Translations under genes and position numbers: made by a program
Notes under the pieces: generated by a model
Database searches by the model: none
Told to the model about the DNA's origin: nothing
Seen by the model: the letters and a program-made list of their open reading frames with translations, nothing else
In this document: in pieces, positions 24,698-27,550 of the stretch
Layout: every line of letters starts with the position of its first letter
Numbering within the stretch: position 1 is the stretch's first letter
Assembly (NCBI GenBank): GCA_020341815.1
Contig: CP070837.1
Location: 216,209-280,208 of the forward strand
Length of the DNA: 64,000 nt
Reading direction: 5' to 3'
Source: Candidatus Omnitrophota bacterium
Lineage (GTDB): Bacteria > Omnitrophota > Gorgyraeia > JAFGHF01

Positions 24698-25018
24698 ATG
24701 ATAGCAGAATTAAATGTAGGCGACATAGTAGAAGCAAAAGTTACTAAAATTACCGATTTCGGCGCTTTCGTTAAAATTAACGGACGAAACCGCGGCTTAA
24801 TCCATATTTCCCAGGTATCCAACGATTTTGTGAAGGATATCAATAAATATCTTAAAGTGGGGGATGAGGTAAAGGCGCGGATAATCAAGCTTGGGCCCGG
24901 CAATAAAATCGATTTGACCTTGAAAAAACCCAAAAGTGACCGGCCCCAAAAGAAAGATAAGTCGTCCGGATTTAAGTCCTCTGATTTTGAGGAGAAGCTA
25001 AGGAAGTTTTTAGAATAA
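24698..25018 (+). CDS. S1 RNA-binding domain protein (YabR/GSP13-like)
   Basis: 106 aa. S1 fold motifs GDIVEAKVTKITDFGAFV..GLIHIS. Confidence 0.7.
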   Translation: MIAELNVGDIVEAKVTKITDFGAFVKINGRNRGLIHISQVSNDFVKDINKYLKVGDEVKARIIKLGPGNKIDLTLKKPKSDRPQKKDKSSGFKSSDFEEKLRKFLE

Positions 25019-25019
25019 T

Positions 25020-25119
25020 CGCGGGGTGGAGCAGCCTGGTAGCTCGGCTCGTAAAAACACTTCGTGTTCACGAGCCGGCACGTGGGCCGATGAAATCGGC
25101 CTTTACGTGCCGCAAGGCT
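25020..25119 (+). pseudogene. Pseudo 5' half of tRNA-fMet (acceptor + D arm) with 66-nt double-hairpin insertion, then anticodon-stem 5' strand CAAGGCT
   Basis: CGCGGGGTGGAGCAGCCTGGTAGCTCG is identical (except 1 nt) to exon 1 at 25390. It is followed by two perfect hairpins (25047..25075 and 25076..25112), then CAAGGCT, then the GIY-YIG ORF. Confidence 0.6.
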
Positions 25120-25131
25120 CATTTGGATTAA

Positions 25132-25470
25132 ATGTATTACGTTTACCTTCTGATTAGCACAAAGGATAATAATCAATATATCGGATTCACTGAAGATATC
25201 GATAAAAGACTAAAAGAACATAATGCTGGTAAAGTAGTATCTACAAAGAATAGAAGACCATTAAAGTTAATTTATTTTGAGGCTTATCTAGATAAAAGAG
25301 ATGCTCAAGGTAGAGAGCAATTTCTTAAAAGTGGAGCAGGTAAGAGATTTTTACGAAAACAATTGAAACACCATTTGGAAACAAGTAATCGCGGGGTGGA
25401 GCAGCCCGGTAGCTCGCAAGGCTCAAAATGGACACAAAGCTCAAAGCCGACATTGCGGAGTCAGCTGTAG
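25132..25470 (+). CDS. GIY-YIG nuclease superfamily protein, YhbQ/UPF0213-like; C-terminal about 30 aa read through tRNA exon 1
   Basis: YYVYLLISTKDNNQYIGFTEDIDKRLKEHNAGK matches the YhbQ-type GIY-YIG signature. The ORF continues through the tRNA 5' exon (..NRGVEQPGSS..) to a stop at 25470. Confidence 0.65.
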   Translation: MYYVYLLISTKDNNQYIGFTEDIDKRLKEHNAGKVVSTKNRRPLKLIYFEAYLDKRDAQGREQFLKSGAGKRFLRKQLKHHLETSNRGVEQPGSSQGSKWTQSSKPTLRSQL

Positions 25471-26060
25471 TAACTAAACTTCTGGAAAGAGGTTTTAGAG
25501 TACTGCGGCCTGTGGGAGATCGACTTTCCTACGATTTAGGCGTCGATCTCGACGGAAAGTTCATTCGCATCCAGGTGAAGAGTGCTTGGTTCAACAAGAA
25601 AGGCAGTTGCTATACTGTTGATGTGCGTCGAACCAAGACAAATCGCCGACATATGTTGAGACAACGTTATGATGCAAATGACTTTGATTTCGCAATTATC
25701 TACATCGCTGATTTGAATGTGTTCTACGTAATGCCTGTATCTGCATTCTCTCGTTACGGAAGTAGCGTAACATTTGTAGAATCAGATAAAAGGCAGCGTA
25801 AACCAAAATCAGCGAATTATAGAGAGCAATGGGATTTGTTGTTCAATGGGTCCCTCAGGCGGCAACGTCTGATGGAAAACCTGTCAAATTCGGTGGAGCC
25901 CTCGACATTAGATCAAGGTAATACCGAGCCAAGTCTCCCGATGGCCATCGGGGGAAAGGTGTAGAGACTAGGTGGCAGGAATCCTGAGGAATCAGGATTA
26001 AGGTATAGTCCAGACTACAAATGCCGTAAGTTCGGCAGCAGTGAAAACTGTAGTAGTAAG
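25424..26060 (+). mobile_element. Group I intron (IC3/Azoarcus-like core) in the tRNA-fMet anticodon loop, between U33 and C34
   Basis: Core-like motifs: GUCAAAUUCGG (25882..25892); GGUGUAGAGACUAGGUGGCAG (P7/P3'); hairpin AAUCCUGAGGAAUCAGGAUU (P8-like); GGUAUAGUCC (P7 3' strand); P9-like hairpins. The last intron nucleotide is G and the last exon nucleotide is U. Confidence 0.6.
25428..25964 (+). CDS. Intron-encoded ORF, 178 aa, possible PD-(D/E)xK-like endonuclease
   Basis: Starts 5 nt after the 5' splice site and ends inside the intron core. Loose GVDLDGKF..IRIQVKS D..(E/Q)xK-like pattern. The nuclease assignment is weak. Confidence 0.4.
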   Translation: MDTKLKADIAESAVVTKLLERGFRVLRPVGDRLSYDLGVDLDGKFIRIQVKSAWFNKKGSCYTVDVRRTKTNRRHMLRQRYDANDFDFAIIYIADLNVFYVMPVSAFSRYGSSVTFVESDKRQRKPKSANYREQWDLLFNGSLRRQRLMENLSNSVEPSTLDQGNTEPSLPMAIGGKV

Positions 26061-26111
26061 CATAACCTTGAGGTCGGCCGTTCGAATCGGCCCCCCGCTA
26101 CCATTTAAGAG

Positions 26112-26139
26112 AGTCCCGGCTTACTGTCGGGACTTTTTA
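26112..26139 (+). terminator. Intrinsic terminator after tRNA-fMet
   Basis: AGTCCCGG-CTTACTGT-CGGGACT stem followed by TTTTTATTT. Confidence 0.65.
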
Positions 26140-26257
26140 TTTGACGTAACCCCTTATATTTGATATAATAATGGTTCTGAAAAGCCTCCGGCTCTACTCT
26201 CCGAGTCAACGACTCGTAGAGTCGGAGACGAACCGTAGGCTCGGAGAGGAGGTAAAA

Positions 26258-27550
26258 ATGATTAAGAGATATACGCTTCCCGAGATGGGCCGCATTTGGG
26301 AAGATGAGAATAAGTTTCATTGGATGTTACAGGTAGAACTCTTAGTCTGCGAAGCCTTAAGCCGAGAAGGTAAAATTCCCAAAGAGGCCCTGAATAATAT
26401 CAAACAAAGAGCCAAAATCGACCTTACCCGTATCCAGGAAATAGAAAATAAGACCCGCCATGATATTATCGCTTTTGTCGCCCAGGTTTGTGAAAATTTA
26501 AAGGAAGAATCCCGCTATTTCCACTTTGGCTTGACCTCGAGTGACCTTTTAGATACGGTTTTGGCAGTAAATTTAAGAGAAGCGGCAAAGATTTTAATTG
26601 CGGATACCAAAAAACTCCTGAACTCTTGCGCTAAACGGGCCCGGGAACATAAACGCACTGTCTGCGTAGGCAGAACGCATGGCATGCATGCTGAGCCGAT
26701 TACCTTTGGGCTAAAACTTGCCCTTTTCTACGACGAAATGAAGCGCAATCTGCAAAGCTTAGAAGAGGCGCTTGAGGCTATAAGTTATGGTAAGATTTCC
26801 GGAGCAGTAGGCACTTATGCCCATCTTTCCCCCGCCGTAGAGGCGTATGTTTGCAAAAAATTAAATCTTAAACCCGCAGGTATCGCCAGCCAGATAATCC
26901 CCCGCGACAGGCATGCGCGCTTTATCAGCTCGCTTGCCCTTGTGGGCAGCTCGTTAGAAAGGTTTGCCCAGGAAATCCGCCACTTACAGCGCAGTGAAGT
27001 GGCCGAGGTCTTGGAGCCTTTTACCAAGACGCAGAAAGGCTCAAGCGCCATGCCGCATAAGCGCAATCCTATTCTTTGCGAGAGAATCTGCGGCTTGGCT
27101 CGTATCTTAAGAGGCAATGCCCAGGTGGCCCTGGAAAATATTGCCCTCTGGCACGAGCGGGATATCAGCCATTCCTCGGCGGAAAGAATAATTATCCCTG
27201 ACTCGACAATCCTGCTTGACTATATGCTCCAGAAGTTTAACTGGGTTGTAGAAAATTTGGTAGTATATAAGGACAAGATGGAAGAAAATCTGGAAGAGAG
27301 CCGTGGGCTAATCTTTTCCCAGCGGTTGCTTTTACGCCTGATGGAAAAGGGCCTCTCCAGAATCGAAAGTTATGATTTGGTCCAGCAGGCCGCATCGCGT
27401 CTCTGGGAGACAAATTTGAACTTTAAAGACGTCCTGATGAATACCCCCGAGATTAAAAAATATCTTAAGGTTCAGGAGATTGAGGATTGCTTTAACGTAA
27501 ATTCATACTTGAAGTATGTAGATAATATATTTAAACAGGTAGGATTGTAA
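26258..27550 (+). CDS. purB: Adenylosuccinate lyase
   Basis: Fumarate-lyase signature GSSAMPHKRNP. Start at ATG 26258 after RBS GGAGAGGAGG; the track's 26171 start is upstream in a leader. Confidence 0.85.
   Translation: MIKRYTLPEMGRIWEDENKFHWMLQVELLVCEALSREGKIPKEALNNIKQRAKIDLTRIQEIENKTRHDIIAFVAQVCENLKEESRYFHFGLTSSDLLDTVLAVNLREAAKILIADTKKLLNSCAKRAREHKRTVCVGRTHGMHAEPITFGLKLALFYDEMKRNLQSLEEALEAISYGKISGAVGTYAHLSPAVEAYVCKKLNLKPAGIASQIIPRDRHARFISSLALVGSSLERFAQEIRHLQRSEVAEVLEPFTKTQKGSSAMPHKRNPILCERICGLARILRGNAQVALENIALWHERDISHSSAERIIIPDSTILLDYMLQKFNWVVENLVVYKDKMEENLEESRGLIFSQRLLLRLMEKGLSRIESYDLVQQAASRLWETNLNFKDVLMNTPEIKKYLKVQEIEDCFNVNSYLKYVDNIFKQVGL

What the first reader, a model, noticed from the sequence alone, without database searches (positions are those of the whole stretch)
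25020..26139. tRNA-fMet split by a group-I-like intron carrying an ORF, preceded by a duplicated pseudo-5'-exon and a YhbQ-type GIY-YIG gene
A complete tRNA-Met(CAT) with initiator-like C1xU72 can only be assembled from 25390..25423 plus 26061..26103. The join falls between U33 and C34. The last exon nucleotide is U and the last intervening nucleotide is G, as at group I splice sites.

The 637-nt intervening sequence ends with group-I core-like motifs. These are GUCAAAUUCGG, GGUGUAGAGACUAGGUGGCAG, a P8-like hairpin, UAUAGUCC and P9-like hairpins. They resemble the compact Azoarcus/cyanobacterial IC3 tRNA introns. The intervening sequence also contains a 178-aa ORF that starts 5 nt after the splice site and overlaps the core.

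Upstream, the first 27 nt of the tRNA are duplicated (25020..25046). They are separated by two perfect GC hairpins from a second CAAGGCT anticodon-stem strand. A YhbQ-like GIY-YIG nuclease ORF follows and reads through the real exon 1.

So the initiator tRNA depends on splicing. The locus records at least two nuclease-associated insertion or duplication events. If this is the only initiator tRNA gene, splicing is essential.
Basis: partly seen in the sequence, partly recalled or inferred. Interest (0 to 1): 0.75.

Follow-up and report, generated by a model that had tools for sequence, protein, structure and literature searches.

The report
Initiator tRNA gene, two nuclease parasites
An initiator-tRNA gene of an uncultured Omnitrophota bacterium carries a known type of self-splicing intron with a homing endonuclease, and separately a small hairpin-associated GIY-YIG nuclease cassette that duplicated the gene's 5' half; related cassettes sit the same way in tRNA genes of other uncultured bacteria.

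Summary
Exons 25390-25423 and 26061-26103 join into a canonical 77-nt tRNA-Met(CAU) with initiator features. The 637-nt insert is a group I intron (Rfam RF00028, 80.7 bits).

Its ORF is a homolog of I-Ssp6803I, the PD-(D/E)XK homing endonuclease of the Synechocystis tRNA-fMet intron (PDB 2OST, E 1e-47). It sits in the P1 loop. This part is a known kind. What is new is its distribution: 71 species-level genomes, mostly Omnitrophota.

The upstream "pseudo-exon + hairpins + GIY-YIG gene" is an independent element. At least 13 other assemblies show the same order: tRNA promoter, truncated tRNA-fMet 5' copy interrupted by a conserved hairpin pair, an ~86-aa single-domain GIY-YIG ORF without its own stop codon, then the intact tRNA.

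Homologous cassettes are flanked by 18-70-nt direct repeats of tRNA-Gln, -Asn and -Ser genes and of a protein-gene 5' end. In each case one intact copy of the host gene remains.

The closest known system is the Ssn/NTS hairpin-associated ssDNA nuclease family. The hairpin motif differs from the published one, and nesting in tRNA genes is not described there.

The closest relative (L159) has the cassette but an intronless tRNA, so the intron probably arrived later. Essentiality of splicing could not be tested.

The parts
24987..25016 (+). Sigma-70-like promoter candidate (TTGAGG-18-TAGAAT) inside the 3' end of the S1-domain gene. It ends 3 nt before the truncated tRNA copy. It is the inferred promoter of the whole unit.
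   Evidence: Consensus scan, 9/12 matches. In relatives a promoter-like TTGACA/TATAAT pair sits in the same position before the truncated copy. Function not shown.
25016..25046 (+). Left direct repeat, part a: 4 nt of leader plus tRNA-fMet nt 1-27 (the 'pseudo 5' exon').
   Evidence: 31 nt, 97% identical to 25386-25416. Conserved 24/27 with the equivalent fragment of relative L159.
25047..25112 (.). Hairpin pair H. Two copies of one module in inverted orientation: hp1 ~25045-25077 reads xxxCGTAAAA-[stem, UUCG loop]-TCACGxxx'; hp2 ~25078-25110 reads xxxCGTGG-[stem, GAA loop]-TTTACGxxx'. The pair is bounded by a 2-nt CG repeat.
   Evidence: DNA fold -24.8 kcal/mol, z -4.7. The module occurs 89 times in 199 kb of GIY-YIG loci against 2 times in 379 kb of control loci. 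Outer-stem positions are complementary in 75-83% of 109 modules, with covariation. Only these two copies occur in the 64-kb window. No Rfam family matches.
25113..25122 (+). Left direct repeat, part b: tRNA nt 28-36/37 (CAAGGCTCA, then T). This is the anticodon-stem 5' strand running into the anticodon.
   Evidence: Exact repeat of 25417-25425. The fragment end CAAGGCTCAT is the same in L159.
25132..25470 (+). Single-domain GIY-YIG nuclease ORF. The core is 25132-25389 (86 aa). It has no stop codon of its own, so the frame runs through exon 1 into the intron.
   Evidence: PF01541, E 7e-16. PDB 1ZG2 and 1YWL (UPF0213), E 4e-8 and 1e-5. All 14 family-invariant residues are present. dN/dS ~0.10 against L159, compared with 0.07 for PurB. 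98-aa homologs end ...RGVEQPGSSQGS*, which is tRNA read-through.
25386..25425 (+). Right direct repeat: 4 nt of leader plus the first 36 nt of the functional gene.
25390..25423 (+). tRNA-fMet exon 1 (nt 1-34, ending at canonical U33).
   Evidence: In 60+ related loci exon 1 also ends GGCT, and the first intron base is C or T.
25424..26060 (+). Group I intron, 637 nt, terminal G at 26060.
   Evidence: RF00028 hit. Alignment with the ORF-less 253- and 268-nt introns of L002 and L004 shows a conserved core and a terminal G in all three.
25428..25964 (+). I-Ssp6803I-family PD-(D/E)XK homing endonuclease ORF in the P1 loop. The domain is aa 1-141 (to ~25850). The last 37 aa are read-through into the ribozyme core.
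   Evidence: PF11645, E 7e-47, covering profile positions 1-137 of 138. 2OST_A, E 1e-47, query residues 2-141. Many of the listed homologs are 145 aa.
25848..25852 (+). Internal guide sequence GGGUC, the 3' strand of P1. It pairs with G30 G31 C32 U33 and intron C+1 (U33.G25849). A25846-G25848 can pair with exon 2 C34 A35 U36 to form P10.
   Evidence: Read from the sequence. It agrees with the conserved U.G columns of the P1 helix in the Rfam alignment and with the GGGC/GGGCU at the same place in L004 and L002. Inferred.
25827..26036 (+). Ribozyme core (P1 3' strand to P9) as matched by Rfam.
26061..26103 (+). tRNA-fMet exon 2 (CAU anticodon to the encoded CCA).
26112..26142 (+). Terminator-like hairpin (AGTCCCG/CGGGACT, 9-nt loop) followed by TTTTTATTT. 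Inferred end of the transcription unit.
   Evidence: Read from the sequence. The automatic scan misses it because the loop is longer than 8 nt.

Best explanation
The locus is one initiator-tRNA transcription unit colonised by two unrelated selfish nuclease elements.

(A) The intron. A group I intron lies between U33 and C34. It is homologous to the cyanobacterial tRNA-fMet intron and carries an I-Ssp6803I-type PD-(D/E)XK homing endonuclease gene in its P1 loop. The RNA is expected to splice itself out and restore the tRNA. The endonuclease is expected to cut the anticodon stem-loop DNA of intronless alleles, so that the intron is copied in by break repair.

(B) The cassette. Upstream lies an Ssn-like mini-element made of an ~86-aa single-domain GIY-YIG nuclease gene and its cognate hairpin pair. 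It sits inside the 5' half of the tRNA gene. A ~40-nt target duplication (leader -4 to tRNA nt 36) leaves a dead 5' fragment next to the tRNA promoter and an intact gene downstream.

The nuclease gene is therefore probably transcribed from the tRNA promoter. The tRNA would then be released from the same transcript by RNase P and by splicing.

By analogy with SsnA, the nuclease most likely recognises the hairpins as single-stranded DNA and nicks next to them. How that leads to integration with a long duplication is not known.

The cassette came first, into an intronless gene. The intron homed in later.
For: SHOWN, intron:
- RF00028 at 80.7 bits.
- The spliced product is a canonical tRNA.
- The endonuclease matches PF11645 (E 7e-47) and 2OST (E 1e-47).
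- 71 genome loci have the same arrangement and the same GGCT| exon end, including a Nostoc locus.
- ORF-less versions of the same intron show that the ORF is an insert in the P1 loop.

SHOWN, cassette:
- It is conserved at the syntenic site (enolase, DivIC, (S1), cassette, tRNA-fMet) in L001, L002/L003, L004, L005, L077, L080, L081, L085, L096, L099, L158, L159 and L160. These loci have an intronless tRNA or an ORF-less intron.
- None of the 71 endonuclease-intron loci has the cassette, so the two elements are independent.
- The hairpin module is about 85-fold enriched in GIY-YIG loci, and its outer stem covaries.
- Direct repeats of the host gene flank cassettes in other targets: tRNA-Gln (25 nt, in the order repeat, hairpin, GIY, inverted hairpin, repeat), tRNA-Asn (18 nt), tRNA-Ser (~70 nt) and the 5' end of a 5'-3' exonuclease gene (~48 nt). 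One intact host copy remains each time.
- 22 of 80 metagenomic homolog loci have a tRNA within 300 nt.
- The GIY ORF is under purifying selection: dN/dS ~0.10, against 0.07 for PurB.

Order of events: L159 has the same flanking S1 and purB genes, GIY 77% identical and PurB 79% identical. It has the same hairpin position and the same fragment end CAAGGCTCAT, but an intronless tRNA.

Known biology: single-domain GIY-YIG Ssn proteins flanked by hairpin repeats are ssDNA-specific, hairpin-directed nucleases (PMC11893778).

INFERRED: the promoter, co-transcription, RNase P release, and nicking at the hairpins.
Against: - The published Ssn-related motif does not match these hairpins (0 hits at the locus). 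Assignment to the Ssn clade (CDD cd10448) could not be tested. The nearest solved structures are UPF0213 proteins.
- There is no sign of recent mobility in this lineage. GIY and PurB have diverged in step, which points to vertical descent. No filled/empty pair of near-identical genomes was found. The hairpin module is not dispersed in the 64-kb window.
- The truncated tRNA copy is far better conserved (34/37 against L159) than saturated synonymous sites would predict. A plain 'dead remnant' reading does not explain this.
- In the tRNA-fMet subfamily both hairpins lie on one side of the gene and 3-10 nt inside the repeat, unlike the cleaner tRNA-Gln arrangement.
- No nuclease, splicing or transcript data exist.
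- The anticodon stem has only two of the three G-C pairs typical of bacterial initiators.
Confidence: 0.75

Rival explanations
1. The GIY-YIG gene is a free-standing homing endonuclease of the phage T4 Seg type. It cuts double-stranded tRNA-fMet genes that lack it and is copied in by break repair. The truncated copy would be the disrupted, and so immune, recognition site.
For: It sits directly next to a highly conserved gene, as SegB sits in the T4 tRNA cluster (PMC2330249, listed). The hairpin insert would destroy a recognition site in the upstream copy. There is a weak similarity to the group I intron endonuclease model TIGR01453.
Against: The protein is only the ~86-aa catalytic domain, with no DNA-binding domain. 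TIGR01453 scores 22.7 bits against a cut-off of 56. Break-repair homing does not create flanking direct repeats. Homologs carry the same hairpins in unrelated targets. The intact downstream tRNA copy would remain cleavable.
Confidence: 0.1
2. The hairpin pair is an RNA-level leader element (attenuator, terminator or mRNA stabiliser) that controls the GIY-YIG gene or the tRNA. The cassette would be a long-domesticated host gene, not a mobile element.
For: One apical loop is UUCG (hp1), and hp2's inner stem is followed by a T-run (TTT here, TTTT in relatives). The pair always lies 10-48 nt upstream of the start codon in the tRNA-fMet subfamily. GIY has diverged in step with PurB under purifying selection. 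Stem covariation fits RNA as well as ssDNA.
Against: The same module occurs in both orientations relative to the gene. It also occurs at the 3' side, nested inside another module, in tandem arrays, and in frame inside a protein-coding gene. That is the behaviour of REP- or MITE-like DNA repeats. No Rfam family matches.
Confidence: 0.1
3. The truncated copy is the remnant of an older tandem duplication of the tRNA-fMet gene. The first copy would have been destroyed by unrelated insertions, so the GIY-YIG gene and the hairpins are there by accident.
For: Tandem tRNA genes are common. Repeat length varies between lineages, with fragment ends at nt 18-37.
Against: The GIY ORF abuts the left edge of the right repeat exactly, and has no stop codon, in almost every locus. 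The same repeat, hairpin, GIY, repeat pattern occurs at tRNA-Gln, -Asn, -Ser and a protein gene. No locus keeps a 3' half of a first copy.
Confidence: 0.04
4. The locus is a decayed pseudogene and a functional, uninterrupted tRNA-fMet lies elsewhere in the genome.
For: It cannot be excluded, because only 64 kb of 1.55 Mb is visible. The anticodon stem has two rather than three G-C pairs.
Against: The exons are 95% identical to the intronless gene of L159 and fold perfectly. The ribozyme core, the terminal G and the guide sequence are intact. Both nuclease ORFs are intact. This is the conserved syntenic tRNA-fMet locus of the phylum.
Confidence: 0.05

Closest known systems
Synechocystis sp. PCC 6803 tRNA-fMet group I intron with homing endonuclease I-Ssp6803I (PDB 2OST; Bonocora & Shub 2001 and Zhao et al. 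2007 as cited in PMC3984707 and PMC3384342)
   Same: Same host gene. Same insertion site: a Nostoc locus in the same search also has exon 1 ending GGGCT|. Same ribozyme class. The endonuclease matches over residues 2-141 at E 1e-47, including identical SYDL and QVKS segments in the printed alignment.
   Different: The host is an Omnitrophota MAG rather than a cyanobacterium. The review states that close homologs are 'generally encoded in cyanobacteria' (PMC3384342). Here 71 species-level genomes were found, mostly Omnitrophota, with single MAGs labelled Deltaproteobacteria, Bacteroidetes, Melainabacteria, Margulisiibacteriota and Patescibacteria. The ORF runs 37 codons into the ribozyme core.
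Ssn family: single-domain GIY-YIG ssDNA nucleases flanked by NTS/SRM hairpin repeats (Chenal et al. 2025, PMC11893778)
   Same: A small single-domain GIY-YIG protein. Cognate hairpin repeats lie next to the gene, on both sides in several homolog loci. Module layout is similar: short 5' motif, hairpin, short 3' motif (CGTCA-hp-TCYRG against CGTAAAA-hp-TCACG). Catalytic Tyr/Tyr/Glu spacing is Y5/Y16/E62 here against Y6/Y17/E64 mutated in SsnA.
   Different: The published SRM search motif does not match. The hairpins are not dispersed in the available 64 kb. The paper does not mention tRNA genes, target duplications, or ORFs lacking stop codons (0 occurrences of 'tRNA'). Clade membership (cd10448) was not testable here.
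UPF0213 / YhbQ / YazA small GIY-YIG proteins (PDB 1ZG2, 1YWL)
   Same: Best solved-structure matches: E 4e-8, or 2.6e-12 with the family profile. Similar size.
   Different: Only residues ~2-67 align. No hairpin or tRNA association is reported for them. Plasmid hits of this type (yazA) reach only 37-42% identity.
REP/RAYT and IS200/IS605 systems (hairpin repeats with a dedicated HUH nuclease)
   Same: Short hairpin repeats that multiply near, and co-occur with, a small nuclease gene. They occur as inverted doublets. The same analogy is drawn in PMC11893778.
   Different: The nuclease fold is different (GIY-YIG, with no covalent tyrosine chemistry known). The long 18-70-nt flanking direct repeats are not a feature of IS200/IS605.
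tRNA-gene-targeting integrative elements (islands and prophages with att repeats)
   Same: Insertion in a tRNA gene with a direct repeat of part of that gene, so that an intact tRNA is kept.
   Different: The element is only ~0.35 kb with no integrase. Either the 5' or the 3' part of the tRNA can be duplicated. A protein-gene 5' end can also be a target.

Membership tests
Group I intron (Rfam RF00028) | Covariance-model match above the gathering score over the catalytic core | tested here: met
   80.7 bits against 50, model positions 1-253 of 253.
Group I intron (Rfam RF00028) | U at the end of the 5' exon paired to G in P1; terminal intron G; P10 with the 3' exon | tested here: met
   U33 (25423) can pair with G25849 in the guide sequence GGGUC. 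G26060 is terminal. A 3-bp P10 is possible. The same holds in the ORF-less relatives. These are pairings read from the sequence, not measured.
Group I intron (Rfam RF00028) | Guanosine-dependent self-splicing | not testable with these tools
   Needs in vitro transcription and splicing, or RNA data.
I-Ssp6803I / PDDEXK_5 homing endonucleases | PD-(D/E)XK_5 domain with sequence similarity to the solved enzyme | tested here: met
   PF11645 at 159 bits (cut-off 26.1). 2OST_A at E 1e-47.
I-Ssp6803I / PDDEXK_5 homing endonucleases | Encoded inside a tRNA-fMet group I intron at the anticodon loop | tested here: met
   The ORF lies in the P1 loop of the intron at U33|C34. The arrangement is the same in 60+ loci.
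I-Ssp6803I / PDDEXK_5 homing endonucleases | Cleaves the intronless tRNA-fMet gene | not testable with these tools
   A natural intronless target is available in L159 for an assay.
Bacterial initiator tRNA | CAU anticodon, unpaired 1:72, A11:U24 | tested here: met
   The ARAGORN fold shows C1xU72 (a mismatch, though not the usual C-A), A11-U24 and CAU.
Bacterial initiator tRNA | Three consecutive G-C pairs (29-31 : 39-41) in the anticodon stem | tested here: not met
   The stem is C-G, A-U, A-U, G-C, G-C, so only two G-C pairs. Orthologous genes of relatives with the stem UUGGG have three.
Ssn single-stranded nuclease family (cd10448) | Single-domain GIY-YIG protein under 150 aa with the catalytic residues | tested here: met
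   86-aa core. Only PF01541 matches. The invariant residues Y5, Y16, R26, H30, E50 and E62 are present.
Ssn single-stranded nuclease family (cd10448) | Gene flanked by hairpin repeats | tested here: met
   Two modules lie upstream here. 37 of 84 homolog loci carry the module (31 within 260 nt upstream, 8 downstream). Several loci have it on both sides of the gene.
Ssn single-stranded nuclease family (cd10448) | Repeats fit the published SRM motif HGTCWYN(0-2)YYVSBRHN(0-5)WNVSBRGN(0-2)RNCYNB | tested here: not met
   0 hits in 24900-25500, 1 in the whole window, and 1 in 199 kb of homolog loci.
Ssn single-stranded nuclease family (cd10448) | CDD/phylogenetic placement in cd10448, and ssDNA-specific cleavage next to the hairpin | not testable with these tools
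   No CDD search and no SsnA sequence were available. The paper's supplements are not held.
UPF0213 (YhbQ/YazA) | Closest sequence relationship to UPF0213 members | tested here: inconclusive
   These are the best PDB hits, but they are partial (residues 2-67) and modest. No Ssn structure or sequence was available for comparison.
Classical GIY-YIG homing endonucleases (I-TevI/Seg) | Catalytic domain joined to a DNA-binding domain; match to the family model | tested here: not met
   There is no second domain. TIGR01453 scores 22.7 bits, below the cut-off of 56.

The most novel reading that the evidence does not exclude
Hairpin-bounded single-domain GIY-YIG cassettes may be an autonomous, so far unrecognised class of prokaryotic mobile element. 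On this reading they integrate at the ends of tRNA genes and other highly expressed genes by hairpin-directed single-strand nicking. Integration creates 18-70-nt target duplications that regenerate the host gene and capture its promoter. The initiator-tRNA locus here would be one such insertion, later invaded by a homing intron.
Probability: 0.3. Interest if true: 0.8.

Novelty: new variant of a known kind. Interest (0 to 1): 0.6.

Why it matters
The intron part extends a textbook bacterial mobile intron (tRNA-fMet / I-Ssp6803I) from cyanobacteria to Omnitrophota and several other uncultured lineages. It also supplies natural intron-plus, intron-minus and free-standing-endonuclease states for studying how such introns form and spread.

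The cassette part bears on an open question about the Ssn nucleases. The Ssn authors raise the hypothesis that NTS-ssnA-NTS units derive from IS-like mobile elements that were domesticated.

Flanking direct repeats of host genes, with one intact copy kept each time, are direct sequence evidence of insertion. They also define concrete substrates for a biochemical test: the hairpins plus the tRNA-gene junctions.

The locus also shows how an essential single-copy RNA gene can tolerate two nuclease parasites. One is removed at the RNA level. The other is accommodated by target duplication.

Tried and rejected
This is an artefact of the CA shared by the intron start and the exon 2 start. The variable first intron base (C or T) in relatives fixes the junction at U33|C34.
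- An Rfam E-value scan of 24900-26300 gave no credible family for the hairpins.
- NCBIfam gave no family above cut-off for either protein.
- A tblastn search against plasmids, meant to bridge to canonical Ssn genes, gave only three YazA-type hits.
- The Ssn paper's supplements and Paquin et al. 1997 are not held.
- The T after CAAGGCTCA in the truncated copy was considered as proof of an intronless ancestor. It is only one informative base, and L158 has C there. The argument therefore rests mainly on the intronless close relative L159.
- The truncated copy was considered as an alternative 5' exon, because GGCU|C is present at 25116-25120. This was rejected: the product would carry the 66-nt hairpin insert, and most relatives' fragments end before the anticodon stem.
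- IS200/IS605-type ends were considered. No HUH transposase is present, and long direct repeats do not fit.
- An assembly artefact was rejected because the architecture recurs in many independent assemblies.
- Two other window matches to CGTGA...TTTACG (11432, 27554) have no hairpin and were treated as chance.
Full report
**Source and context.**
The two nuclease proteins occur with 100% identity in a Candidatus Omnitrophota MAG, on a 1,553,238-bp contig (P0001 and P0121). The local gene order is enolase, DivIC/FtsB-like, S1-domain protein, the feature, then adenylosuccinate lyase (PurB).

**The split tRNA and the intron.**
ARAGORN finds no tRNA-Met in the raw window. Joining 25390-25423 to 26061-26103 gives a canonical 77-nt tRNA-Met(CAU) with C1xU72, A11:U24 and an encoded CCA.

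The 637 nt between the exons contain a full-length match to the Rfam group I intron model (25827-26036, 80.7 bits against a gathering score of 50).

In 60+ related loci exon 1 ends in GGCT, and the next base is C or T. The junction is therefore U33|C34, and the intron ends in G26060.

I aligned the gene with the 253-nt and 268-nt ORF-less introns of two relatives (L002, L004). The ribozyme core is almost identical. About 420 nt (25428-25845) form an insert between the 5' splice site and the guide sequence, that is, in the P1 loop.

Reading the sequence, GGGUC (25848-25852) can pair with G30 G31 C32 U33 and the first intron base, with U33.G25849. AUG (25846-25848) can pair with the CAU of exon 2 to form P10. 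These pairings are inferred, not measured.

**The intron ORF.**
The 178-aa ORF matches Pfam PDDEXK_5 end to end (E 7e-47). It matches the crystal structure of I-Ssp6803I over residues 2-141 (2OST, E 1e-47). Many of the listed homologs are 145 aa. The last 37 codons here are read-through into the ribozyme core.

A review states that this enzyme and its close homologs are generally found in cyanobacteria (PMC3384342). My scan of one genome per species found 71 loci, mostly Omnitrophota. Single MAGs were labelled Deltaproteobacteria, Bacteroidetes, Melainabacteria, Margulisiibacteriota and Patescibacteria, and there was one Nostoc. NCBI already names some of these proteins 'group I intron-associated PD-(D/E)XK endonuclease'.

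This half of the finding is a new member of a known kind.

**The upstream structure.**
25016-25046 repeats 25386-25416 (31 nt, 97% identical: 4 leader bases plus tRNA nt 1-27). 25111-25121 repeats 25415-25425 exactly.

Between the two pieces lie 66 nt that fold into two hairpins (DNA -24.8 kcal/mol, z -4.7).

The GIY-YIG ORF starts 19 nt further on (25132). Its conserved core ends at about codon 86, exactly where the right repeat begins, and it has no stop codon.

In relatives with an intronless tRNA the frame ends at the UAA of the anticodon loop. That gives 98-aa proteins ending RGVEQPGSSQGS.

**The arrangement is conserved and independent of the intron.**
The closest GIY-YIG homologs lie at the same syntenic site. 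All of them show this order:
- a promoter-like sequence;
- a truncated tRNA-fMet 5' copy, sometimes with 4-60 nt of leader;
- the hairpin pair inside that copy;
- 10-48 nt of spacer;
- the GIY-YIG ORF;
- the intact tRNA.

The hairpin pair interrupts the copy after nt 9, 13, 18-20 or 27. The copy ends 3-10 nt later. The truncated copy carries each lineage's own tRNA variants.

These tRNAs are intronless or have an ORF-less intron. Conversely, none of the 71 endonuclease-intron loci has a GIY-YIG gene. The window is the only locus seen with both elements.

**The hairpins are a conserved module.**
The module reads xxxCGTGR-[variable stem-loop]-TTT(T)ACGxxx'. Here it occurs as an inverted doublet.

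With one pattern it occurs 89 times in 199 kb of GIY-YIG loci against 2 times in 379 kb of control loci. In the window it occurs only at this locus.

With no pairing imposed, the three positions outside CGT/ACG are complementary in 75-83% of 109 modules. The pairs vary (A-T 33, C-G 27, G-C 18). Complementarity falls to chance at positions 5-6.

Between the window and its closest relative, the outer stem of hairpin 2 differs by two compensatory pair changes.

No Rfam family matches.

**The pattern holds for other host genes.**
Among 80 metagenomic homolog loci, 22 have a tRNA within 300 nt. From the density in this window I would expect roughly 2.

Flanking direct repeats of the host gene occur at several targets:
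- tRNA-Gln: a 25-nt repeat, in the clean order repeat, hairpin, GIY, inverted hairpin, repeat plus the rest of the tRNA.
- tRNA-Asn: 18 nt.
- tRNA-Ser: about 70 nt.
- A 5'-3' exonuclease gene: about 48 nt of its 5' end, where the second hairpin even supplies the new GTG start codon.

 In every case one intact host copy remains. The nuclease gene lies behind the host promoter or next to the host gene.

**Comparison with what is known.**
The closest described system is the Ssn family. These are single-domain GIY-YIG proteins flanked by hairpin repeats (NTS/SRM). SsnA was shown to bind and cut single-stranded DNA next to its hairpin. The authors note that the NTS-ssnA-NTS layout is the same as that of insertion sequences and raise the hypothesis that it is a domesticated element (PMC11893778).

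That paper never mentions tRNA. Its SRM search motif does not match these hairpins. I could not test clade membership (cd10448).

The nearest solved structures are UPF0213 proteins.

I therefore describe the cassette as working like an Ssn unit. I do not file it as a proven member.

**History of the locus.**
L159 has the same S1 and purB neighbours (PurB 79% identical) and a GIY-YIG protein 77% identical. The hairpin pair sits at the same position, and the fragment end is the same (CAAGGCTCAT). Its tRNA-fMet is intronless.

The cassette is therefore older than the split of the two lineages. The intron with its endonuclease most likely homed in afterwards.

The GIY-YIG gene has evolved under purifying selection (dN/dS ~0.10, against 0.07 for PurB), with nearly saturated synonymous sites. 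In this lineage it is therefore maintained and vertically inherited, not a recent arrival.

**Unexplained points.**
- The truncated tRNA copy is 34/37 identical between the two lineages, despite that divergence. This implies gene conversion from the intact copy, or a function.
- In the tRNA-fMet subfamily both hairpins sit upstream and slightly inside the repeat.
- The integration chemistry that would yield 18-70-nt duplications is unknown.
- The promoter (24987-25016), co-transcription, and RNase P release of the tRNA from a stop-less mRNA are inferences.
- Whether this is the only initiator tRNA gene could not be checked.

Noticed in passing
L033 1568-3450; also L047 and L072: Here the tRNA-fMet carries an ORF-less group I intron (RF00028 at 1592-1799 in L033). 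The I-Ssp6803I-like endonuclease gene lies free-standing ~1.2 kb downstream. In L033 a 233-aa HNH-motif ORF lies between them. This looks like the 'free-standing endonuclease next to an intron' state proposed as a precursor of mobile introns.
   Followed up: partly
L086 and L156, downstream of the GIY-YIG gene (5'-3' exonuclease ORF): Solo hairpin modules are inserted in frame inside the exonuclease coding sequence. They add about 10 residues (IENGD[RVKGSASRGP]TYLGV), reminiscent of Rickettsia palindromic elements.
   Followed up: no
L088 310-570: There are tandem repeats of the first ~21 nt of the GIY-YIG ORF, each followed by a hairpin module, upstream of the full gene. The ORF start ATGTTTTACGT contains the module's TTTTACG motif.
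   Followed up: no
L004 3740-4263: Downstream of the intron-containing tRNA-fMet lies a degenerate copy of the tRNA 3' end (CAAATCCTGTCCACGCAA) preceded by other hairpins, then a second, more distant GIY-YIG gene (42% identical).
   Followed up: no
L157 1835-2000: After the tRNA-Ser that hosts a cassette there is a second short copy of its 3' end (AATCCCACCCCTTCCGC) behind a hairpin-rich stretch, just before a second tRNA-Ser. It may be the scar of another cassette.
   Followed up: no
L090 1288-1390: One hairpin module is nested inside the loop of another, directly after tRNA-Asn.
   Followed up: no
window 25016-25046 and 25113-25122 against L159 196-222 and 291-300: The non-functional tRNA 5' copy is 34/37 identical between two lineages whose synonymous sites are nearly saturated (pS 0.63-0.67). 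This points to gene conversion or an unknown function.
   Followed up: partly
window 25831-25839: GGGAUUUGU, inside the 3' end of the endonuclease ORF, is aligned by the Rfam model as the 5' strand of P1. It can pair with the guide sequence, so it is a possible competitor of the real 5' splice site.
   Followed up: no
window 25274-25285 and 25418-25429: A 12-nt inverted repeat (92% complementary) links the middle of the GIY-YIG ORF to the exon 1/intron junction. It may be chance.
   Followed up: no
window 26141-26257: There is a near-consensus promoter (TTGACG-17-TATAAT with a TG extension) followed by a ~90-nt leader with long inverted repeats before purB. No Rfam family matched.
   Followed up: no
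window 25416-25420 and 26066-26070: The anticodon stem of this initiator-like tRNA has A29-U41 instead of the usual third G-C pair. Many orthologs in the phylum keep three G-C pairs.
   Followed up: partly
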